DNA of 64,000 nucleotides from a virus (lineage: Duplodnaviria > Caudoviricetes): IMG/VR virus record IMGVR_UViG_3300042139_000023. One strand, written 5' to 3'. Numbering within the stretch: position 1 is the first letter of the stretch; each line of letters begins with the position of its first letter. Below the pieces are notes generated by a model, which saw nothing but the letters and a program-made list of their open reading frames with translations, was not told the DNA's origin and ran no database searches. Shown in pieces: positions 4,489 to 35,845 of this stretch. Both the position numbers and the translations under genes were made by a program.

Positions 4489-4941
4489 ATGAGCAGCGAC
4501 ACGTTCACCGATGCCGTCGAGCTGGCCTACGCCGAGTGCTGGCGCCAGGGCGAGCACCTGGAGGACATCCTGAACGGCAAGGTCAAGTACGGAGACGGCT
4601 CCGAGGGGGATCAGGATTCGGCGTACACCAACTACTGGCGCGAGAGCCTGGGTGCCACGAAGGTGCTCGGCGCACTCCTCGTCGCCCAGGGGGAGGTCGG
4701 CACCCGGACGTTCCCGGTCAACCTCGACGAGGCGCTTCCGGACTCCCAGCAGGTCTGGATCCGTCTCATGCAGTGGGGCATCCGCAAGGGCCTGACGACG
4801 CAGGCCAAGCTGGACCAGGCGATCGAAGATGCGCCGCAGCTCAAGGACGCTCTGCGCTACCTCGGCCAGAACCGCAGGCCGAGCGAGGCCGACCTGAAGG
4901 CGCTCGCCGAGTTCCAGATGAAGCAGACCCAGCAGGTCTGA
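4489..4941 (+). CDS. hypothetical protein
   Basis: ATG at 4489 after AGGAG; coding bias. Confidence 0.75.
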   Translation: MSSDTFTDAVELAYAECWRQGEHLEDILNGKVKYGDGSEGDQDSAYTNYWRESLGATKVLGALLVAQGEVGTRTFPVNLDEALPDSQQVWIRLMQWGIRKGLTTQAKLDQAIEDAPQLKDALRYLGQNRRPSEADLKALAEFQMKQTQQV

Positions 4942-4952
4942 ACCTTCTCGCG

Positions 4953-4987
4953 GAAGACCCCCGGAGGAACCGGCTCCGGGGGTCTTC
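4953..4987 (+). terminator. intrinsic terminator-like hairpin
   Basis: 14-bp stem GAAGACCCCCGGAG/CTCCGGGGGTCTTC. Confidence 0.75.
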
Positions 4988-5084
4988 TCGCGTCGTGCGA
5001 CATTCGGCATATGCCAGAGTGAAGCCCTGGCCATAGGCCATCAACATCGTTGTGGTAGACTCGTGTTCACGGAAGGGAGAAAAA

Positions 5085-29305: not shown

Positions 29306-30590
29306 GGAGGAACTGCGCCTCCTGGACCTCCTCACGCCCGAGTACTGGGACCCCCAGGCCAAGGCGCGGGGTCTGCGCGGCGTGAATCTGGACTCCGCCA
29401 AGCTGACCGAGTCCGGGGTCGTCGCCGTCCTCAAGCTCGACGGACGCGACATGATCAAGGAGCTGCGGGCTAAGCACCAGGCCATACGCGCCATGCTTGA
29501 CGTGCTCGACGAGCACCTGAGCGACCTCTCCCCCGGCGGCCGGTCCTCGAAGGTGCTGTTCGCGGTGCGCACCCGGTACATCACCGACGAGCTGGACATG
29601 TTCTGGCACCCCGACATCACCACGCTCGGCCTCGACACCGTCACGGGCGAAGAGGTCGACGTTCCGCGCAACGAGCGCCTGCTGGTCGGCGGCGCCTCGG
29701 GATCCGGCAAGAGCTGGTCCACGCGTGCCCTGATGGCCCGCGCCGTCGTCCACCCCGACGAGGAGCTGGGCGGATTCATCGACGGGAAGGGGGAAGAGGC
29801 CACGGTCTGGCGCGGCATCTGCACCTGTGCCGTGACCCACGAAGAGATCATCGAGATGATCGAGCGCGAGCACGCCCGGATGGAGGACCGGGCCGCCCAG
29901 ATGGCCAAGCTCGGGATCTCGAAGTGGGACCTGAAGCTCGGCCCGCGCAGGCTCATCCCGATCGACGAGGGCTACTCCGTCCTCCAGGCTGTGATCGACG
30001 AGGACAAGAGGCGCGGCAAGGCGCCGAAGGGTGACGAGGAGTACGCCTTCCTCGAAGGCCCCGACAAGTCCGTGATGCAGAAGCTCACCGAGCTGTCCAG
30101 CCAGGGCCGCTCGCGCGAGATCATCATCATGTGGATGACCCAGAACCCGCTCCGCTCGGGCGACGACCGGGGCATCACCTCGGGCATCCGCACGAACTTC
30201 GACTTCTCGCTCTGCCTTCGCGTCAACACCCCGCAGAACACCGACACGGTGCTCGGTCCCGGGGCGGGCGTGGAGCCGCACTTCCTCCCGCGCGGCCCGC
30301 GCTTCCGAGGGCACGGCTACCTGAACGTGCACGGCCCCAACCTCGTGCGCACCTGGACCGTCACGGACGAGATGGTGGCCCTCCTGGCGCACCCGGACCA
30401 CGGCCGTGGCAAGTACCCCCGCGATGTCGCTCTGCGGGCGCTGCGCGGCCAGCCGCAGGCCGTCTGGACCCCCGCTCTCCTCGCGACCCACACGGGCTGC
30501 GGCGTGACGCAGGCCAGCCGTTTCCTCCGGTCGTTCACCCGTGAGGGTCTGATCGTCGCGGACGGGGAGAACTTCCGGTTGGCGGTCTGA
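29289..30590 (+). CDS. FtsK/SpoIIIE-family (TraB-like) ATPase with C-terminal HTH
   Basis: Walker A GASGSGKS, IDGKG.E, Walker B IPIDEG, SQGRSREIIIMWMTQNP; C-terminal TPALLATHTGCGVTQASRFL. Confidence 0.8.
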   Translation: MLVATEEELRLLDLLTPEYWDPQAKARGLRGVNLDSAKLTESGVVAVLKLDGRDMIKELRAKHQAIRAMLDVLDEHLSDLSPGGRSSKVLFAVRTRYITDELDMFWHPDITTLGLDTVTGEEVDVPRNERLLVGGASGSGKSWSTRALMARAVVHPDEELGGFIDGKGEEATVWRGICTCAVTHEEIIEMIEREHARMEDRAAQMAKLGISKWDLKLGPRRLIPIDEGYSVLQAVIDEDKRRGKAPKGDEEYAFLEGPDKSVMQKLTELSSQGRSREIIIMWMTQNPLRSGDDRGITSGIRTNFDFSLCLRVNTPQNTDTVLGPGAGVEPHFLPRGPRFRGHGYLNVHGPNLVRTWTVTDEMVALLAHPDHGRGKYPRDVALRALRGQPQAVWTPALLATHTGCGVTQASRFLRSFTREGLIVADGENFRLAV

Positions 30591-30600
30591 CCTGGATCGG

Positions 30601-30630
30601 TTGACCTAGGCCAGCAACACCCGGTAGAGT
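30601..30630 (+). promoter_or_regulatory. sigma70/HrdB-type promoter for tRNA cluster
   Basis: TTGACC-N18-TAGAGT; GACCTAGGCC operator-like palindrome overlaps the -35. Confidence 0.75.
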
Positions 30631-30741
30631 TTCACTTAGTTCGGGAATCCGACACCCGAGCGAAACGCTCCGAACCGGTTACGGCCCGGCTCGGCGCACC
30701 GATCCACCGGAGGCGGTCCGACACGCTTCCGGATGGATCAC

Positions 30742-30815
30742 TGGCGGGTAGCTCAGTTGGTCAGAGCATCGGACTGATAATCCGAAGGTCGAGAGTTCAA
30801 GTCTCTCCCCGCCAA
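30742..30815 (+). tRNA. tRNA-Ile(GAU), CCA not encoded
   Basis: acceptor TGGCGGG/CCCGCCA, D arm GCTC/GAGC, anticodon arm TCGGA-CTGATAA-TCCGA, T arm GAGAG-TTCAAGT-CTCTC. Confidence 0.93.
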
Positions 30816-30843
30816 CTGGACCTGAATTACAGGTCCGCATTAC

Positions 30844-30939
30844 CCCCGCTCTCGGCTGTAGAAAGCTGGTGGCGGGGTGACGTACCACTGAGGATTCCGT
30901 TGGGGAGGCACCCCGGGTGGCACCCGGGCCACGGAGTCC
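30844..30939 (+). ncRNA. candidate structured RNA between tRNA genes
   Basis: CCCCGC/GCGGGG stem (30844-30877) and 9-bp GGATTCCGT/ACGGAGTCC stem enclosing GGGG-AGGCA-CCCC / CCCGGG-TGGCA-CCCGGG; no credible ORF. Confidence 0.35.
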
Positions 30940-30968
30940 GCTGCTCGGCGATTGGCAGGTCGCCGAGC

Positions 30969-31052
30969 GCCCACGTTGTGTAGCGGTCTAGCACATCGCC
31001 CCACTGGTAATTCCAGCGGGCGGAGGCGCCGGTTCAAATCCGGTCGTGGGCT
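30969..31052 (+). ncRNA. tRNA-like RNA (Glu/Asp-like body) with 18-nt hairpin-containing anticodon loop
   Basis: acceptor GCCCACG/CGTGGGC; D arm GTGT/GCAC; stem TCGCC/GGCGG; T arm GCCGG-TTCAAAT-CCGGT; loop contains CTGG/CCAG hairpin. Confidence 0.8.
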
Positions 31053-31136
31053 CTCCGGTTGGAGTGGAAGATGAATCGGACGATTCCGTGTAGAACTCCT
31101 GAAAGCGGAATCTGGGCTGGACTATTGGGTCTGGCG

Positions 31137-31254
31137 GTGCATGTGCCTGAGCGGCCTAAAGGTGCCTGCTGAAGCTCTCCCAGGAGTGGGGGCAGGCGAC
31201 CTGACGGAACTGGGATTTCCGGAGGGTCCACGGGTTCGAATCCCGTCGTGCACA
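31137..31254 (+). ncRNA. class-II tRNA-like RNA with 24-nt anticodon loop and oversized variable arm
   Basis: acceptor GTGCATG/CGTGCAC+A; D region CCTGAGCGGCCTAAAGG; stem GCCTG/CAGGC; variable arm GACC..CGGAA/TTCCG..GGTC; T arm ACGGG-TTCGAAT-CCCGT. Confidence 0.8.
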
Positions 31255-31264
31255 CGTGAACGGA

Positions 31265-31402
31265 ATGGAGAAGGAAAAGGAGAAGCCGGTCGGGCCGGTC
31301 GTTCTCCAGGAGGACGGAATCACGTTCCTCTCCGTCAAGGAGCTGGACGACTACCGCGAGCAGAAGATCCTGCTCGCCTGGCAGGAAGGTGCATATGTCT
31401 GA
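31265..31402 (+). CDS. small hypothetical protein (45 aa)
   Basis: ATG GAG AAG... open to TGA at 31402; overlaps next start. Confidence 0.45.
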   Translation: MEKEKEKPVGPVVLQEDGITFLSVKELDDYREQKILLAWQEGAYV

Positions 31403-31583
31403 CGCTGACGCCCTGGATGCCGCATCCGATGCGGTGAACTCCGGGCCCGCAGCAACGCAGTCGCACTCCATCGGCAACTACGGATCCAGCGAGCTGACTC
31501 GCACGGAGGTTCCGGACAAGCCGCAGGCCAAGATGAGCGGTGTTCCGCCGGAGCAGTGGGCCCGCCCCGTTCAGAAGCGCTGA
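31395..31583 (+). CDS. small hypothetical protein
   Basis: ATG after AGGAAGG. Confidence 0.55.
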   Translation: MSDADALDAASDAVNSGPAATQSHSIGNYGSSELTRTEVPDKPQAKMSGVPPEQWARPVQKR

Positions 31584-31601
31584 CCCTCGGAAAGGGAGAA
31601 C

Positions 31602-32351
31602 GTGACGTACACCATCGAGAAGATCCGCGAGATCGCCCCGGGCCTGGAGAAGCCCTTCCAGAAGGCGAGCTTCGCGGCGAACCAGCATGGCCTGGACGGC
31701 GAGCGGGCGGCCGTCTACCTCGTGCTCGACCGCTCCGGGTCGATGGACTGGCCGGGGCGCGGCTACTACAGCGGCGGCGCCGTCCAGTACTTCGCCGAGC
31801 GCATCCTGGGCATGGCTCCGCTCTTCGAGGACGACGGCCGGGTGCCGGTCGTGTTCTTCGACCACGAGCTGAAGGGCATGGACGAGCTGTCCCTGGAGGA
31901 CTACCAGGGCAAGATCGCCAAGGCGCACTCCAAGCTCGGCCACATGGGCGGTACGGACTACGCCGTCGCCATGGACGCCGTGGTGCAGCACTACCAGTCC
32001 ACCGGCAAGTCGGTTCCCGCCCTGGTCATCTTCCAGACCGACGGCTCGCCCAGGGACAAGAAGGCCGCCGCCCGGCGCATCTGCCAGTACGCGAACCTGC
32101 CGATCTTCTGGCAGTTCGTCGGCTTCGGCGAGGACCGCGAGTACGACTACGACGACGAGGAGGGCCTGGGCTTCCTCCAGCGCCTCGACGACATCCCGGT
32201 CCCGCAGTACCGGCCCATCGACAACTCGGACTTCTTCGCCGTCGGCCAGGACCCGACCGCGATGCGTGACGCCGAGCTGTACCGGCGCCTGATGAACGAG
32301 TTCCCGGGCTGGCTGGCCAAGGCCCGCCAGATGGGCATCGTCCGCGTCTGA
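31602..32351 (+). CDS. vWA-domain protein (TerF C-terminal vWA-like)
   Basis: VYLVLDRSGSM, GGTDYAVAM, VIFQTDG, LPIFWQFVGFG, FLQRLDD, DNSDFF. Confidence 0.85.
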   Translation: MTYTIEKIREIAPGLEKPFQKASFAANQHGLDGERAAVYLVLDRSGSMDWPGRGYYSGGAVQYFAERILGMAPLFEDDGRVPVVFFDHELKGMDELSLEDYQGKIAKAHSKLGHMGGTDYAVAMDAVVQHYQSTGKSVPALVIFQTDGSPRDKKAAARRICQYANLPIFWQFVGFGEDREYDYDDEEGLGFLQRLDDIPVPQYRPIDNSDFFAVGQDPTAMRDAELYRRLMNEFPGWLAKARQMGIVRV

Positions 32352-32360
32352 GGAGGACTC

Positions 32361-32558
32361 ATGGCCAAGCCCGCGTACGCCCGCGAGGCGGCACAGGTGA
32401 AGACGGCCCACCCGGATCTCGACGACGCCACGGCCCGGCGAGTCGCGGAGACCTACGTACAGGTCTCCCGTGACAGCGGTACGCCGCTTCCGGAGCTGCT
32501 GGCCGAGTCGGTGCGAGCCGAGAACAGCTCGGCCGCAGGCAACCAGACCGGCGCCTGA
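32361..32558 (+). CDS. small hypothetical protein
   Basis: GAGGAGG RBS. Confidence 0.65.
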   Translation: MAKPAYAREAAQVKTAHPDLDDATARRVAETYVQVSRDSGTPLPELLAESVRAENSSAAGNQTGA

Positions 32559-32619
32559 CCGCAACATCCCTTGAGGGGGCCCCGACGGGCCCCCTCTGTC
32601 GTACAGGAGATAAGTCGAC

Positions 32620-33108
32620 ATGTCGATGGCAGTTCTGTTCTACGGCTACAGCCTGGGCGTTCCCGACGACGGCGACTGGGCCATCAAGAACACGGACGAG
32701 TTCGAGCCGGACTGGCTCACCGAGTACGAGGCGGCCCTGGAGAAGGATGACGACGGCGAGGGCTACGAGTTCTACATGCGCCGCGCCCTCCTGCTGGCCT
32801 CCGGCGTCCCCGACGACCTGATCACCAGGGGCAACGCCGAGGCCACGCTGAAGGAACAGGGCCTGGAGGTCATCACCTTCGGGCACTCCAACACGCAGTT
32901 CTACGGTCTGGCACTCGCGGGCTCCGTGTACGAGGCGGACGACTGGTCGCCGAAGTGCATTGACCCGAACTTCGAGTGGAACCCGAACATCCGCATCCCG
33001 GGCGTCGACTTCCCCGACGACGGCTACCTGCACAACGGCCTGCGCGCCCTGTCGATGGAGCCCGTCCAGGAGCGGGCCTCCTGGATCATCGCCCCTCGGG
33101 AGTACTAA
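32620..33108 (+). CDS. hypothetical acidic protein
   Basis: AGGAG RBS; coding bias. Confidence 0.75.
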   Translation: MSMAVLFYGYSLGVPDDGDWAIKNTDEFEPDWLTEYEAALEKDDDGEGYEFYMRRALLLASGVPDDLITRGNAEATLKEQGLEVITFGHSNTQFYGLALAGSVYEADDWSPKCIDPNFEWNPNIRIPGVDFPDDGYLHNGLRALSMEPVQERASWIIAPREY

Positions 33109-33150: not shown

Positions 33151-33228
33151 GCACCCCGGAGCGTTCGTGCGAACGGTTACTTCATCCTGCGAAGAGAACA
33201 CCGGGCGCCATCTTGTTGGCCGGGGCGC
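33151..33228 (+). ncRNA. Y-RNA-like unit 1 (short, no full tRNA domain)
   Basis: terminal stem GCACCCCGG/CCGGGGCGC; shared motifs CCGGAGCG, AACGGTTACTTC, ACCGGG, GTTGGCCGG. Confidence 0.65.
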
Positions 33229-33230
33229 GT

Positions 33231-33394
33231 AACAGAAGATCCAGAAGGGTTACCGGAGCGTTTTGAGAAACGGTTACTTCTTCTGGAAAAAGAAACTGAG
33301 GGCGGGTTCGAATCCCGTCGTTGCCGACGCTTGGCATAACTGGCAAACACCGGGTCTCGCCTAGTTGGCCGGTGGCTCCTCTGGATCTTCTGTT
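33231..33394 (+). ncRNA. Y-RNA-like unit 2 with permuted tRNA-like domain
   Basis: 15-bp outer stem AACAGAAGATCCAGA/TCTGGATCTTCTGTT; same four motifs; anticodon-like arm TTCTT-CTGGAAA-AAGAA, then T arm GCGGG-TTCGAAT-CCCGT, then D-loop-like TAACTGGCAAAC. Confidence 0.7.
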
Positions 33395-33399
33395 TCTCG

Positions 33400-33580
33400 G
33401 TGTGTGGGTGAGGTGCCCGGAGCGTCTTGGCAACGGTTACTTCACAGTGGAACCAAATGTTTCAGGTTCGAGTCCTGATCCGCGAGCTTGCTCGTGGATA
33501 GCTCAATTGGCAGAGCGTTGGTCGAGGAAGGTTCGAAAGAACCACCGGGGCCTATCTGTTGGCCGGGCACCCCACACATA
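33400..33580 (+). ncRNA. Y-RNA-like unit 3 (YrlA-type circularly permuted tRNA domain)
   Basis: outer stems GTGTGTGG/CCACACAT and GGTGCCCGG/CCGGGCACC; ACCAA-ATGTT-[TCAGG TTCGAGT CCTGA]-[TCCGCGAGC TT GCTCGTGGA]-TA-[GCTC AATTGGCA GAGC]-G-TTGGT. Confidence 0.8.
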
Positions 33581-33592
33581 CATCGAGACGCG

Positions 33593-33625
33593 CCCCCTGC
33601 TCCCATCCCGGGACAGGGGGTTTTT
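33593..33625 (+). terminator. intrinsic terminator between RNA array and TROVE gene
   Basis: CCCCCTG-C-TCCC/GGGA-CAGGGGG followed by TTTTT. Confidence 0.8.
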
Positions 33626-33651
33626 GCGTTTCAAGGAAAGGGAGAAGGGTC

Positions 33652-35343
33652 ATGGCAACGTTCAACAAGCCGGGCGCGAAGGCGCGCGTCACGTCCCAGG
33701 TGAAGACGACCGGCACGACCAAGACGTTCGAAGGCGCGAGCGGTTTCACGCGCAGCCCGCTGTCGGACCTCTACCTGCTCTCGGTGTCCAACCTCGTCGG
33801 CAAGGACGCGTTCTACGAGCGCGCCAGCGACCGCAACGAGCGCTACGTGGACCTCCTGCACGGCACCGCCCTGCTGGAGCAGGAGCACGTCACGGCCATG
33901 CTGCCGTGGCTGCGCACCGACGGCTACATGCGCACCACGTCGCTCCTCGCGGCGGCCGAGGTCGCCAAGACGCTCTGCGACGAGCACCGGTACAAGGGCG
34001 TCGAGGACATGGTCGACGGGGTGCTCCAGCGTGCCGACGAGCCGGGCGAGTTCATCGCCTACTGGTTCTCGATCGCGGGCAAGGCGTGGCCGAAGCGCTA
34101 CCTGCCGGTCAAGAAGGGCCTGAAGCGGGCCGTCGCACGCCTGTACACCGAGTACTCGTACAGCAAGTACGACTCGCCGCGCCGGGCCTACCGGTTCGCC
34201 GACGTGATCGACATCGTCCACCCGGCGCCGACCGCCCAGTGGCAGTCGGACCTGTTCCGGCTGATCCTCGACCGGCGCCACGGGCACAGCGGCGCGATCA
34301 CGCCGACCCTGTCGATGACGCGCAACCAGCGCGAGTGGCGCCAGGCGGCTGCGGGTGTCCCGCGCAAGGCGTCGGCCGAGTACATCTACGGGTCGGGCCT
34401 GATCGCCCCGCAGGTGCTCAAGGACGCGGGCCTCACGTGGGAGGACGTGCTGTCGGAGCTGGGCGGCAAGGTCGACAAGAAGCTGCTGTGGGAGGCGATG
34501 ATCCCGACCATGGCGCCGGGCGCGCTGATCAAGAACCTGCGCAACTTCGACGAGGCCGGTGTCTCCGACGCCTCGGCCGACGCGGTGGCGAAGGTGCTCT
34601 CGGACAGCGAGCGCGTGCGGAAGGCCCGGCTCTTCCCGTACCGCTTCCTGTCGGCGTACCGCGCCCTGTCGTCGCTGCGCTGGGGCCACACCCTGGAGCG
34701 CGGCCTGGCGGGTTCGCTGGAGCTGGTTCCGACCCTGCGGGGGAAGACCCTGATCCTCGTGGACCGCAGCCCGTCCATGTTCCCGGGCATGTGGGGTTCC
34801 ACCCCGCACAAGGGGGACATCTCGCTGGCCGACCAGGCGGCGCTCTTCGGGGCGGCGCTGGCCGTGAAGGCGCAGGACGCCAAGCTCGTCGAGTTCGGTG
34901 GCGACCAGGCGCTCGGCGGCTGGAACAGCCGGGGTGGCGGCGCCGGTTCGCGCACGGTCAACGTGCCGCGCGGGGCGAGCGTCCTGAAGATCGTCGAGAG
35001 CTTCGGCCCGTCGATCAACGGGACCGACATCCCGCGCGCCGTGAAGGACAACTTCACGAGCGAGTTCAACCGCGTCGTGATCGTCACGGACGAGCAGTCG
35101 CGGCCGGGCTGGCTCCCGTCGAACATGGGCGGGCGCACCTACGGCATGCCGGAGACGCGGATCGACGACCTGATCCCGAAGACCGTTCCGGTCTACCTGT
35201 GGAACATGGCGGGCTACGCGGGCTCCATCCTGGAGACCGGTGGCACCAACCGTCACTGCTTCGGTGGCCTCTCGGACGCGAGCTTCGGCCTGATCCAGCT
35301 TCTGGAGCAGGGCAAGAACGCGCCGTGGCCGTGGATGAAGTGA
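33652..35343 (+). CDS. rsr: Ro60/TROVE-domain RNA-binding protein with C-terminal vWA domain
   Basis: N-terminal T.TFEG..GF...P..DLYLL..SNLVGKDAFYE; YMRT..., RADEP, YSKYD, ALIKNLRNF, RLFPYRFLSAY, LILVDRSPSM (MIDAS), VIVTDEQ, LWNMAGY; ATG at 33652 after AAGGGAGAAGG. Confidence 0.9.
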   Translation: MATFNKPGAKARVTSQVKTTGTTKTFEGASGFTRSPLSDLYLLSVSNLVGKDAFYERASDRNERYVDLLHGTALLEQEHVTAMLPWLRTDGYMRTTSLLAAAEVAKTLCDEHRYKGVEDMVDGVLQRADEPGEFIAYWFSIAGKAWPKRYLPVKKGLKRAVARLYTEYSYSKYDSPRRAYRFADVIDIVHPAPTAQWQSDLFRLILDRRHGHSGAITPTLSMTRNQREWRQAAAGVPRKASAEYIYGSGLIAPQVLKDAGLTWEDVLSELGGKVDKKLLWEAMIPTMAPGALIKNLRNFDEAGVSDASADAVAKVLSDSERVRKARLFPYRFLSAYRALSSLRWGHTLERGLAGSLELVPTLRGKTLILVDRSPSMFPGMWGSTPHKGDISLADQAALFGAALAVKAQDAKLVEFGGDQALGGWNSRGGGAGSRTVNVPRGASVLKIVESFGPSINGTDIPRAVKDNFTSEFNRVVIVTDEQSRPGWLPSNMGGRTYGMPETRIDDLIPKTVPVYLWNMAGYAGSILETGGTNRHCFGGLSDASFGLIQLLEQGKNAPWPWMK

Positions 35344-35446: not shown

Positions 35447-35845
35447 ATGGCAAATTCATTCGAGACCGGCGGGGAAGTCCTGACGGTCGGCAGCAAGGTC
35501 GTCGTGTTCGACGGCAACAGCCAGCGCGAGCTGGCCATCACCAGCATCGGAACCAAGCGGGTCTTCATCGAGTCGGCGTACGGCTTCAGGCCGGTCCCCT
35601 TCAGCAAGGAGGACCGCACGTCCCAGCAGGGGGCCTACCACCAGTACTTCAAGACGCTGACCGAAGTGGCCCTGGAGCAGGAGCGGGCGGTCGCGAAGTC
35701 CCGCCTGCGCGACCTGGGGATCGAGGCCAGGATTTCCGGCCACGGCAAGGACGGCCTGGACCCCTACTCCGTGGACACGCTGCGCGAGATCGCCGGGATC
35801 CTGGAGGCTGCGAAGCTCAAGTTCGAGCAATCCCAACAAGGTTGA
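35447..35845 (+). CDS. hypothetical protein
   Basis: AGGAG RBS; 132 aa. Confidence 0.75.
   Translation: MANSFETGGEVLTVGSKVVVFDGNSQRELAITSIGTKRVFIESAYGFRPVPFSKEDRTSQQGAYHQYFKTLTEVALEQERAVAKSRLRDLGIEARISGHGKDGLDPYSVDTLREIAGILEAAKLKFEQSQQG

What the first reader, a model, noticed from the sequence alone, without database searches (positions are those of the whole stretch)
31137..31254. Class-II tRNA-like RNA with a doubled anticodon arm and oversized variable arm
Seen: intact acceptor, D and T arms. The anticodon stem GCCTG/CAGGC encloses 24 nt instead of 7. It begins with a loop-like CUGAAGC (GAA at 34-36), followed by a second possible 5-bp stem TCTCC/GGGGG closing CAGGAGT. The variable arm is about 32 nt and can form a two-part stem. 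The D region resembles tRNA-Tyr/Ser. Inference: this is either a tRNA with a short intron-like insert near position 37/38 (not expected in bacteria; I could not see a bulge-helix-bulge), a ribosome/nuclease decoy, or a conserved pseudo-tRNA. Perfect pairing elsewhere argues against simple decay.
Basis: partly seen in the sequence, partly recalled or inferred. Interest (0 to 1): 0.8.

Follow-up and report, generated by a model that had tools for sequence, protein, structure and literature searches.

The report
Sealed-anticodon tRNA mimic in Streptomyces phage
A large Streptomyces phage carries a conserved 118-base RNA gene shaped like a tyrosine/serine-type tRNA whose codon-reading loop is sealed into a long rod, so it almost certainly reads no codons; its job is unknown.

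Summary
The element at 31137-31254 (+) is real. The window is a cluster-BM Streptomyces phage. I found 12 distinct homologues: 7 GenBank phages plus IMG/VR and soil or rhizosphere contigs. Covariation backs every helix (97% of cells paired, 22 pairs with double changes, 0/500 shuffles).

Its "doubled anticodon arm" does not. The arm is a closed rod: 7 bp, an all-purine 3x3 internal loop (GAA/GGR), then 4-5 bp capped by YYCCAG. All four inner pairs show compensatory changes.

I reject the intron reading. ARAGORN -i gives Arg, Ala, Phe, Ser or nothing across homologues. There is no bulge-helix-bulge. Three complete relatives lack a splicing endonuclease and RtcB and already carry tRNA-Phe(GAA).

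Best reading: a non-decoding class II tRNA mimic, cut from a polycistronic transcript. It lies in a conserved block: tRNA-Ile, mimic A, pseudoknot spacer, B, orf48, Y RNAs, Ro60. The orf48 GTG start sits 2 nt after B's discriminator. The trans function is inferred, not shown; a decoy for factors that recognise class II tRNAs is my leading guess.

The scan has noted sealed-anticodon mimics in other phages, but not this family. I found no Rfam family, annotation or paper for it.

The parts
31137..31254 (+). Whole tRNA mimic 'B' (118 nt), from the first acceptor base to discriminator A
   Evidence: Covariance model R1 scores 106-140 bits in 12 distinct homologues. Covariation.
31137..31143 (+). 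Acceptor stem, 5' strand. It pairs with 31247-31253. A at 31254 is the discriminator. No CCA is encoded.
   Evidence: 7 of 7 pairs are 100% paired, 3 with compensatory changes.
31146..31162 (+). Class II D arm: 3-bp stem, loop with invariant A14, G15 and GG
   Evidence: 2 of 3 pairs compensatory. Same pattern as the actinobacterial tRNA-Tyr D arm.
31164..31197 (+). Sealed 'anticodon' arm. Outer 7-bp stem 31164-70 with 31191-97. Purine 3x3 internal loop GAA 31171-73 and GGG 31188-90. Inner stem 31174-78 with 31183-87. Cap CCCA 31179-82.
Evidence: MFE fold. Inner stem has 4 of 4 pairs with compensatory changes. TGCTGAA, CCAG and GGNGGCAGG are invariant.
31198..31228 (+). Hypertrophied variable arm: 5 bp, a mismatch, 6 bp, and a 7-8 nt loop starting with invariant CUGG (31210-13)
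   Evidence: 8 of 11 pairs compensatory. CUGG is complementary to the invariant CCAG of the sealed arm's cap. A fifth pair (columns 43-78) is CG in 7, UA in 1 and unpaired in 4.
31230..31246 (+). T arm, loop TTCGAAT
   Evidence: 100% paired, 3 of 5 pairs compensatory, loop invariant.
31256..31402 (+). orf48. Its only in-frame start (GTG) lies 2 nt after B's discriminator.
   Evidence: Nine BM-type homologues share the GTG start and the N-terminus VN(G/E). dN/dS is 0.25-0.56. L004 and L028 instead have a Shine-Dalgarno (SD) site plus ATG.
31054..31136 (+). Conserved structured spacer (pseudoknot-like) ending in a 7-bp hairpin (31116-31135) that abuts B's 5' end
   Evidence: Alignment of 11 homologous regions. 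Compensatory changes were seen by eye in both stems.
30969..31053 (+). Mimic 'A': a tRNA-shaped gene whose anticodon loop is an 18-nt hairpin here and 3, 6 or 8 nt in relatives
30742..30816 (+). Canonical tRNA-Ile(GAU), the first gene of the RNA block
   Evidence: ARAGORN and Rfam, 77 bits.
30601..30630 (+). The only sigma-70-like promoter match upstream of the RNA block. No terminator-like site in 30400-31700.
   Evidence: The TAGAGT box is conserved in relatives.
33454..33524 (+). YrlA-type (permuted tRNA-like) Y RNA, one of three upstream of Ro60
   Evidence: Rfam RF02553, 33.6 bits, E 1.6e-4, below gathering score. The repeated ACGGTTACTTC motif is visible.
33559..35343 (+). Ro60-like TROVE protein gene (start approximate)
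   Evidence: Pfam TROVE 1.4e-14. phrog_850, RNA-binding protein. Annotated 'Ro-like RNA binding protein' in relatives.

Best explanation
B is a non-decoding RNA derived from a class II (Tyr/Ser-type) tRNA.

SHOWN
- It keeps a complete tRNA top half and elbow.
- Its anticodon arm is sealed into a covarying rod about 15 layers long. The rod has a conserved purine internal loop and a CCAG cap.
- Its variable arm has grown to about 12 bp, with a CUGG loop.
- It sits in a conserved block: tRNA-Ile, mimic A, spacer, B, orf48, more ORFs, Y RNAs, Ro60.
- Only one promoter-like site lies upstream of the block, and no terminator-like site is present.

INFERRED
1. The block is transcribed as one precursor. 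Host RNase P and RNase Z (or an equivalent 3' pathway) cut B out, as they do for CCA-less tRNA genes, and CCA is added.
2. The 3' cut after A73 leaves orf48 with a 1-nt leader before GUG. That is in effect a leaderless mRNA, a form that actinobacteria translate well.
3. The released RNA cannot enter decoding. It acts in trans through its tRNA-like surface (acceptor/T helix, elbow, oversized variable arm) by occupying a protein that recognises class II tRNAs. My leading candidate is a host tRNA-directed immune or toxin enzyme. Known examples recognise exactly these parts. Septu/retron PtuAB cuts the tRNA-Tyr variable arm. MenT3, of the AbiEii family, needs the tRNA-Ser variable arm and top half and barely needs the anticodon stem.
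4. The invariant CCAG and CUGG loops may kiss and lock the two long arms together.
For: - Structure and conservation: 12 distinct homologues; 97% of cells paired; 22 pairs with double changes; 0/500 shuffles reach this; slid controls 33-48%.
- Sealed arm: inner helix 4 of 4 pairs compensatory. The alternative anticodon-like hairpin is refuted.
- Not decoding: ARAGORN and Rfam do not call it in the window. With introns allowed, ARAGORN calls differ between homologues.
- Core tertiary positions are invariant.
- Class II ancestry.
- Synteny with Ro60, the Y RNAs and (in some phages) an Rnl-type RNA ligase.
- One promoter-like site and no terminator-like site.
- orf48 start abuts B and orf48 is under purifying selection.
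- The neighbouring mimic A never has a 7-nt loop. Non-decoding therefore looks like a property of this locus.
- Literature on targets: MenT3 requires the long variable loop, the acceptor/T stem and the elbow; shortening the anticodon stem has only a slight effect (PMC11162799). [quoted passage not shown]
Against: - There is no direct evidence that B is made or processed.
- No partner protein is identified.
- B is absent from two more distant relatives that keep tRNA-Ile and the Y RNA array; one of them (L145) also keeps orf48. B is therefore accessory.
- L004 and L028 keep SD plus ATG after B, so making a leaderless mRNA cannot be its core role.
- The kissing pairs are invariant, so covariation cannot test them. 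The fifth pair is broken in 4 of 12 sequences.
- Tyr versus Ser ancestry is unresolved, so the proposed target class is a guess.
- The conserved GAA/GGR internal loop has no explanation in the decoy model.
Confidence: 0.5

Rival explanations
1. Cis-acting punctuation only. B (like A) exists mainly as an RNase P/RNase Z processing signal. It frees the structured spacer RNAs and the downstream mRNA from one long transcript. The released RNA has no trans function.
For: - One promoter-like site and no terminator-like site across the block.
- The GTG start of orf48 lies 2 nt after the discriminator in 9 homologues, and orf48 is under purifying selection.
- A's anticodon arm varies freely in length, as expected if only the top half matters.
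Against: - B's two long arms carry invariant sequence motifs (TGCTGAA, CCAG, GGNGGCAGG, CUGG), while the stems around them covary freely. A pure processing signal needs none of this.
- L004 and L028 keep B although orf48 has its own SD plus ATG.
Confidence: 0.2
2. Ro60-associated RNA. B is a further partner or substrate of the phage Ro60 ring. It would be a Y-RNA-like tether with normal (unpermuted) tRNA topology, as modelled for D. radiodurans Yrn1.
For: - Every B-bearing contig long enough to check also has Ro60 2-3 kb downstream, even where Ro60 is only 36-38% identical.
- Bacterial Y RNAs mimic tRNA, and extra Ro-bound RNAs escape bioinformatic detection (PMC4201824).
Against: - B lacks the motif shared by the three Y RNAs of this window (ACGGTTACTTC and its partner strand).
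- B has no extended 5'/3' helix for Ro binding.
- L147 has tRNA-Ile and a Y RNA array but no B, and L145 also lacks B.
- No Rfam YrlA signal falls on B.
Confidence: 0.12
3. Charged but non-ribosomal adaptor. Host SerRS, LeuRS or TyrRS aminoacylates B, since the first two do not read the anticodon. B then delivers or sequesters the amino acid, or the synthetase, outside translation.
For: - Intact acceptor stem, A73 and a long variable arm.
- SerRS and LeuRS ignore the anticodon (established knowledge of tRNA identity; review PMC9976931 listed, not read here).
Against: - A73 is not the G73 seen in the actinobacterial tRNA-Ser genes read.
- Position 2-71 is U-A.
- TyrRS needs the anticodon (from memory).
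- Three complete relatives encode no class Ib or IIb synthetase.
- No tRNA-dependent transferase was recognised nearby.
Confidence: 0.08
4. Decoding tRNA with a short intron or unusual anticodon arm: the first reader's option, giving tRNA-Phe(GAA) after removal of 17 nt.
For: - CUGAAK follows a 5-bp stem in all homologues.
- Some relatives carry an ATP-dependent RNA ligase near Ro60.
Against: - ARAGORN -i gives Arg, Ala, Phe, Ser or nothing across homologues, with introns of 24-44 nt.
- The 'intron' is a covarying helix, and pairs 33-56 and 34-55 extend the stem.
- The internal loop is symmetric, so it is not a bulge-helix-bulge.
- Position 37 would be U in 9 of 12 sequences.
- A class II body with a Phe anticodon is unknown to me (from memory).
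- Relatives carry a normal tRNA-Phe(GAA).
- No splicing endonuclease or RtcB in relatives. The ligase is absent from the window.
Confidence: 0.03
5. Decaying tRNA pseudogene with no function.
For: B is not called by the standard tRNA finders in the window.
Against: Compensatory changes occur in every helix. Core and loop motifs are invariant across 12 diverged homologues whose flanking spacers have diverged.
Confidence: 0.02

Closest known systems
Bacterial class II tRNAs (tRNA-Tyr, tRNA-Ser, tRNA-Leu; Rfam RF00005)
   Same: 7-bp acceptor stem, 3-bp D stem with a class II D loop, canonical T loop, Levitt-pair positions, a long variable arm, and A73 as in tRNA-Tyr and tRNA-Leu. The best cellular hits of the B model are tRNA-Ser, Tyr and Leu.
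   Different: No 7-nt anticodon loop, no U33 and no anticodon. The arm is a closed rod about twice the normal length. The variable arm is 32 nt; class II arms are usually about 13-21 nt (from memory).
YrlA / Y RNAs bound by Ro60 (Rsr), Rfam RF02553 (Chen et al. 2014, PMC4201824)
   Same: A non-coding tRNA mimic encoded next to a Ro60 gene, also in phages. Expected to be handled by tRNA enzymes.
   Different: YrlA is circularly permuted (T arm, closed acceptor hairpin, D arm). Its 5' and 3' ends form the Ro-binding stem. B has normal tRNA topology, free acceptor ends, and none of the stem motif shared by this window's three Y RNAs.
Phage tRNA-Tyr that counters Septu / retron-Eco7 PtuAB (PMC11555353, PMC13096335), and tRNA-Ser as target of MenT3/AbiEii-family toxins (PMC11162799)
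   Same: A phage-borne class II tRNA body. In these systems the variable arm and top half are what the host enzyme recognises or cuts. A decoy role is discussed for phage tRNA-Tyr.
   Different: Those phage RNAs are working tRNAs that also replenish the pool. B cannot decode, so it could only act as a sponge or inhibitor. No link of B to any defence system has been tested.
tmRNA tRNA-like domain, and eukaryotic or viral tRNA-like RNAs (mascRNA from MALAT1, gammaherpesvirus vtRNAs). From memory: phage T4 stable RNAs C and D in its tRNA cluster.
   Same: tRNA-shaped RNAs that lack an anticodon, are processed by RNase P and RNase Z, and do not decode.
   Different: No G3:U70 alanine identity and no mRNA-like domain, so B is not tmRNA. 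It is unrelated in sequence to the others. B's two elaborated arms with conserved loop motifs have no counterpart in them.

Membership tests
Canonical decoding tRNA (RF00005) | 7-bp acceptor stem, D arm with GG, T arm with the T-psi-C loop, elbow and Levitt positions | tested here: met
   All are present and invariant or covarying in 12 homologues.
Canonical decoding tRNA (RF00005) | 5-bp anticodon stem closing a 7-nt loop with U33 and an anticodon | tested here: not met
   Covariation supports 7 bp, a 3x3 loop, 4-5 bp and a YYCCAG cap. The alternative 7-nt loop hairpin fails.
Canonical decoding tRNA (RF00005) | Detected by standard tRNA finders at their thresholds | tested here: inconclusive
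   Not called in the window by ARAGORN or by Rfam, at gathering score or at E<=10. The Satis homologue reaches 34.5 bits against a cut-off of 29.
Intron-containing tRNA | Removing the insert gives the same canonical anticodon loop and isotype in all homologues | tested here: not met
   ARAGORN -i gives Arg(gcg), Ala(ggc), Phe(gaa), Ser(gct) or nothing, with introns of 24-44 nt.
Intron-containing tRNA | Bulge-helix-bulge motif (archaeal type) or a self-splicing ribozyme fold | tested here: not met
   The internal loop is a symmetric 3x3, not staggered 3-nt bulges 4 bp apart. A 17-24-nt insert is too short for a group I intron; the smallest I recall are about 200 nt (from memory). No Rfam intron hit.
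Intron-containing tRNA | Splicing endonuclease and ligase available | tested here: not met
   PF01974 and PF01139 are absent from Frankenweenie, JustBecause and Satis. The Rnl ligase occurs in some relatives only and is absent from the window. The window's own full genome is not held.
YrlA / Y RNA (RF02553) | Permuted order: T arm, closed acceptor hairpin, D arm | tested here: not met
   B has the normal order, with free ends at the acceptor stem.
YrlA / Y RNA (RF02553) | Terminal Ro-binding helix shared with the locus's other Y RNAs | tested here: not met
   The motif ACGGTTACTTC occurs three times in 33160-33450 and is absent from B.
YrlA / Y RNA (RF02553) | Encoded next to Ro60 | tested here: met
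   B lies 2.3 kb upstream of Ro60 on the same strand, in every B-bearing contig long enough to show it.
YrlA / Y RNA (RF02553) | Physical binding to Ro60 | not testable with these tools
   Needs immunoprecipitation or a gel-shift assay.
tRNA-like decoy of tRNA-targeting defence | Binds or is consumed by a host tRNA-directed nuclease or transferase and relieves defence | not testable with these tools
   Only anatomical compatibility with the published recognition rules (PMC11162799, PMC13096335).

The most novel reading that the evidence does not exclude
B is a new class of phage counter-defence RNA: a 'closed-ring' tRNA mimic. The loop of its hypertrophied variable arm (CUGG) kisses the cap of its sealed anticodon arm (CCAG). 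This would make a rigid, nuclease-resistant body that presents only the acceptor/T helix, elbow and variable-arm surface. That surface would trap class-II-tRNA-directed immune enzymes of Streptomyces, such as Septu/PtuAB-type nucleases or AbiEii/MenT-type nucleotidyltransferases. Excision of B would at the same time create the leaderless mRNA of the next gene.
Probability: 0.12. Interest if true: 0.8.

Novelty: new variant of a known kind. Interest (0 to 1): 0.55.

Why it matters
Phage tRNA genes are now understood as weapons against tRNA-targeting immunity. The known cases are working tRNAs. This element, a conserved tRNA body deliberately made unable to decode, would point to a second strategy: mimicry or sponging rather than replacement. 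It occurs in a host genus (Streptomyces) where phage-defence biology is little explored.

It also shows that annotation pipelines mislabel or miss such genes. JustBecause annotates a 72-nt piece of it as tRNA-Ser, and other records leave it blank.

The arrangement of a tRNA-like element followed 2 nt later by a GUG start gives a directly testable case of tRNA punctuation producing a leaderless mRNA in an actinophage.

The family is small: one phage cluster plus soil and rhizosphere relatives.

Tried and rejected
- **RNA evidence.** Two true soil metatranscriptome runs gave contigs over 31350-31524 (orf48 and the next ORF), 32422-32652 and the Y RNA region. None covered B. One 151-nt contig at 31104-31253 came from a wastewater library that the tool flags as probably DNA. 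This is no evidence either way for expression of B.
- **Pattern scans.** One scan of genome contigs and one of metagenome contigs returned mostly chance hits, ordinary tRNAs preceded by TGCTGAA. Only 7 metagenome loci were true homologues, and no bacterial genome was.
- **Covariance-model search of 151 actinobacterial genomes.** It found only ordinary class II tRNAs, at 51 bits or less.
- **L016 hit (22 bits).** It proved to be two adjacent permuted Y RNA units, not a homologue.
- **Weak R1 hits in the window (4638-4772 and 4906-5009).** Spurious.
- **Neighbouring proteins for clues.** orf48, orf64, orf65 and orf162 have no Pfam or PHROG family. The orf162 AlphaFold model (pLDDT 78) has no PDB fold match, and the ESM Atlas returns only unnamed viral clusters.
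- **Window genome.** The whole genome of the window is not held.
- **K-turn, loop E or sarcin-ricin reading of the GAA/GGR loop.** Considered by eye and dropped. The loop is symmetric, and its 3' side varies between GGA, GGG and AGG.
- **Variable arm as the true anticodon arm.** Its 7-nt loop reads CU-GGG-AU. I rejected this because the stem is 12 bp, only 1 nt would remain as the variable region, and the loop is 8 nt in several homologues.
- **Promoter inside B for a primary leaderless orf48 transcript.** No suitable -10 box sits at the right distance (sequence).

Full report
**Where the window comes from.** A 3-kb stretch around the finding matches Streptomyces phage Frankenweenie at 87% identity. 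It matches JustBecause, Kela, Satis, Quantum, Kradal and EhyElimayoE more distantly. These are 184-200 kb lytic phages; Frankenweenie, JustBecause and Satis are assigned to cluster BM (PMC10652959). DNA identical to the window occurs in many soil and rhizosphere metagenomes.

Neither ARAGORN nor the Rfam tRNA model calls it in the window. It is nonetheless conserved in all seven GenBank relatives. Most of those records leave it unannotated; JustBecause labels a 72-nt piece tRNA-Ser. Pattern scans of IMG/VR and of metagenomes, followed by a covariance model built here (R1), brought the set to 12 distinct sequences.

On the model alignment, 97% of cells form standard pairs and 22 pairs carry changes on both sides. 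None of 500 column shuffles reaches the observed values. Sliding the 3' partners by 1-3 columns drops pairing to 33-48%. Acceptor, D, T and variable-arm helices all contain compensatory pairs. The positions that build the tRNA elbow are invariant: U8, A14, G15, the GG of the D loop, the C before the T stem, and the loop TTCGAAT. The cloverleaf core and the 32-nt two-part variable arm are therefore confirmed.

On the alignment, that inner hairpin is only 80% paired. It has no compensatory pair, and one of its pairs is broken in 8 of 12 sequences.

The minimum-energy fold gives a different arm:
- a 7-bp stem, GCCTGCT/GGCAGGC;
- a symmetric 3x3 all-purine internal loop, GAA opposite GGG, GGA or AGG;
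- a 4-5-bp stem, GCTCT/GGAGT here and TCCGT/GCGGA, TTCGC/GCGAA or GTCGT/GCGAC in relatives;
- a cap, YYCCAG.

All four inner pairs show compensatory changes. The position of the anticodon loop is thus occupied by a closed rod about twice the normal arm length. There is no U33 and no anticodon.

**The intron reading.** With introns allowed, ARAGORN does call the element. Across homologues, however, it returns Arg(gcg), Ala(ggc), Phe(gaa), Ser(gct) or nothing, with introns of 24 to 44 nt and poor stems. The relatives already carry an ordinary tRNA-Phe(GAA) in a separate array of about a dozen normal tRNAs. The symmetric internal loop is not a bulge-helix-bulge. Frankenweenie, JustBecause and Satis have no splicing endonuclease and no RtcB. 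An Rnl-type RNA ligase sits beside Ro60 in JustBecause-like phages and in L004, but not in the window. I put the intron reading at about 3%.

**Ancestry.** In 151 actinobacterial genomes the model finds only ordinary class II tRNAs, at 51 bits or less. The top hits checked (45-51 bits) are tRNA-Ser; tRNA-Tyr and tRNA-Leu score about 37-46 bits. By direct comparison, the D arm (CCYGAGYGGYC(W)AAAGG) and the A73 discriminator match actinobacterial tRNA-Tyr best. The actinobacterial tRNA-Ser genes read have G73. No copy was found in any bacterial genome scanned. As far as searched, the family is confined to these phages.

**Context.** The gene order is conserved in every B-bearing contig long enough to show it. 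This holds even where Ro60 is only 36-38% identical. The order is:
- FtsK-like ATPase;
- tRNA-Ile(GAU);
- mimic A;
- a structured spacer;
- B;
- orf48;
- small ORFs, with or without a TerF-like vWA protein;
- orf162;
- three Y RNAs;
- in some phages, the RNA ligase;
- Ro60 (TROVE);
- a ProQ-C-like protein.

Mimic A is also non-decoding. Its anticodon 'loop' is an 18-nt hairpin here, 3 nt in Satis, 6 nt in L004 and 8 nt in L028, and never 7 nt.

Only one promoter-like site is found, upstream of tRNA-Ile, and no terminator-like site occurs across 30400-31700. The RNAs and orf48 are therefore probably one transcript.

Two more distant relatives lack B. L145 has tRNA-Ile, an A-like gene and then orf48 with its own Shine-Dalgarno (SD) site. 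L147 runs from tRNA-Ile into a Y RNA array. B is thus an accessory addition to a tRNA-Ile/Y RNA/Ro60 core.

**The junction with orf48.** In nine BM-type homologues the only in-frame start of orf48 is a GTG that begins 2 nt after B's discriminator. The N-terminus VN(G/E) is conserved, and dN/dS is 0.25-0.56. No room is left for a ribosome-binding site, because the upstream bases are B's acceptor strand. If the gene is expressed, the simplest route is 3' processing of B after A73. That is the normal RNase Z reaction on CCA-less precursors (established knowledge, from memory). It would leave a 1-nt leader before GUG, in effect a leaderless mRNA of the kind common in actinobacteria (from memory). 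L004 and L028 keep SD plus ATG after B. This coupling is therefore derived, not the reason B exists.

**Conserved motifs and a possible kissing loop.** The helices covary freely, yet four motifs are invariant:
- TGCTGAA, the top of the outer stem plus the 5' side of the internal loop;
- GGNGGCAGG, the opposite side;
- CCAG, in the cap of the sealed arm;
- CUGG, at the start of the variable-arm loop.

CCAG and CUGG are complementary. A fifth pair is C-G in 7 sequences, U-A in 1 (Satis) and unpaired in 4. In the window and in Frankenweenie-type sequences, six pairs are possible. The two arms are of similar length (about 15 and 12 layers), so a side-by-side arrangement closed by a loop-loop helix is conceivable. 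Because the core pairs never vary, covariation cannot test this. The motifs could equally be protein-binding sites.

**What it most likely does.** The anatomy shows that the tRNA top half and elbow are under selection, that decoding is excluded, and that both long arms carry specific conserved features. From this I infer an RNA that is processed and CCA-tailed like a tRNA and then acts by being recognised as a class II tRNA.

Two published host systems recognise just the parts that B keeps or exaggerates:
- MenT3, a DUF1814/AbiEii-family toxin of an actinobacterium, needs the long variable loop, the acceptor/T stem length and the D/T elbow of tRNA-Ser. Shortening the anticodon stem barely affects it (PMC11162799).
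- Septu and retron-Eco7 PtuAB cut the variable arm of tRNA-Tyr. Phage tRNA-Tyr counters them, possibly 'as a decoy or supplement' (PMC13096335; PMC11555353).

A sponge for such an enzyme is my leading mechanism. It fits the neighbourhood, which holds Ro60, Y RNAs and in some phages an RNA ligase, a set linked to RNA damage and repair in bacteria (PMC7790460, abstract seen). It remains an inference. No partner is identified, and the GAA/GGR loop is unexplained.

The alternatives I keep open are a purely cis-acting punctuation signal (0.2), a Ro60-bound RNA (0.12) and a charged non-ribosomal adaptor (0.08). Three complete relatives encode no class Ib or IIb synthetase and no CCA-adding enzyme. 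Any such activity would be the host's.

**Expression.** The one attempt to see the RNA in public data was uninformative. True metatranscriptome contigs cover orf48 and the Y RNA region but not B. The only contig on B comes from a library flagged as probably DNA.

**Novelty.** I found no Rfam family at or near threshold. No public annotation goes beyond the mislabels. None of the papers I searched describes it.

Earlier notes of this scan describe sealed-anticodon tRNA mimics in other phages, and one tRNA-Leu mimic whose variable arm pairs with its own anticodon loop. None of them is this family. Those are unchecked AI notes, and one of them was later downgraded. I use them only to say that the general phenomenon seems to recur.

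I class B as a new variant of a known kind (non-decoding tRNA mimics). Interest is moderate, because the range is narrow and the function untested.

Noticed in passing
window 31054-31136: The spacer between mimic A and B is conserved. By eye it forms an H-type pseudoknot: GGAGT...ACTCC interleaved with GATTCCG...CGGAATC, both with compensatory changes in relatives. A 7-bp hairpin (31116-31135) follows and abuts B's 5' end. Some relatives carry an extra hairpin inserted after the invariant GTAGA. It may be a released small RNA in its own right.
   Followed up: partly
window 30969-31053 and homologues (L003:3372-3441, L004:2032-2103): Mimic A is a class I tRNA-shaped gene. Its anticodon loop is an 18-nt CUGG/CCAG hairpin here, 3 nt in Satis (annotated tRNA-His), 6 nt in L004 and 8 nt in L028. 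It is never a 7-nt loop.
   Followed up: partly
window 30817-30968: The 150-nt spacer between tRNA-Ile and A is packed with conserved hairpins. The last of them directly abuts A's 5' end, mirroring the hairpin in front of B.
   Followed up: no
window 33395-33487: ARAGORN's 93-nt 'tRNA-Pro(tgg)' is also annotated in Frankenweenie. It overlaps the YrlA-type permuted Y RNA (Rfam hit 33454-33524) and is probably a misannotation of Y RNA parts.
   Followed up: partly
L115:601-836 (Satis, main tRNA array): A tRNA-shaped gene with good acceptor, D and T arms has about 160 nt inserted at the anticodon position. There is no Rfam group I intron hit, only a partial tmRNA-model hit of 14 bits. ARAGORN does not call it.
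   Followed up: partly
L051:3744-3874 (metagenome contig Ga0265298_10001269): An unrelated tRNA-Leu-like gene has a self-complementary insert of about 45 nt in its anticodon loop. The pattern scan picked it up by chance.
   Followed up: no
L002:3794-4546, L004:3656-4411, L015:6094-6843, L030:8520-9269: An ATP-dependent RNA ligase (PF09414, Rnl type) sits between the Y RNAs and Ro60 in JustBecause-like phages and in L004. It is absent from the window and from Frankenweenie-like and Satis-like phages.
   Followed up: partly
window 32620-33108: orf162 is an acidic 162-aa protein conserved in most phages with this module (not found in the GenBank JustBecause locus L002). Its AlphaFold model is confident (pLDDT 78), but it has no Pfam or PHROG family and no PDB fold match.
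   Followed up: yes
window 35447-35845: A phage ProQ C-terminal-like domain protein (PF24203, 1.7e-16) lies directly downstream of Ro60. It is a second putative RNA-binding protein in the module.
   Followed up: no
L016:4700-5850: A more distant phage (Ro60 35% identical) carries an array of at least five permuted Y RNA units upstream of Ro60. They share the motif CCGAAGTG...ACGG(A/T)TACTTC.
   Followed up: no
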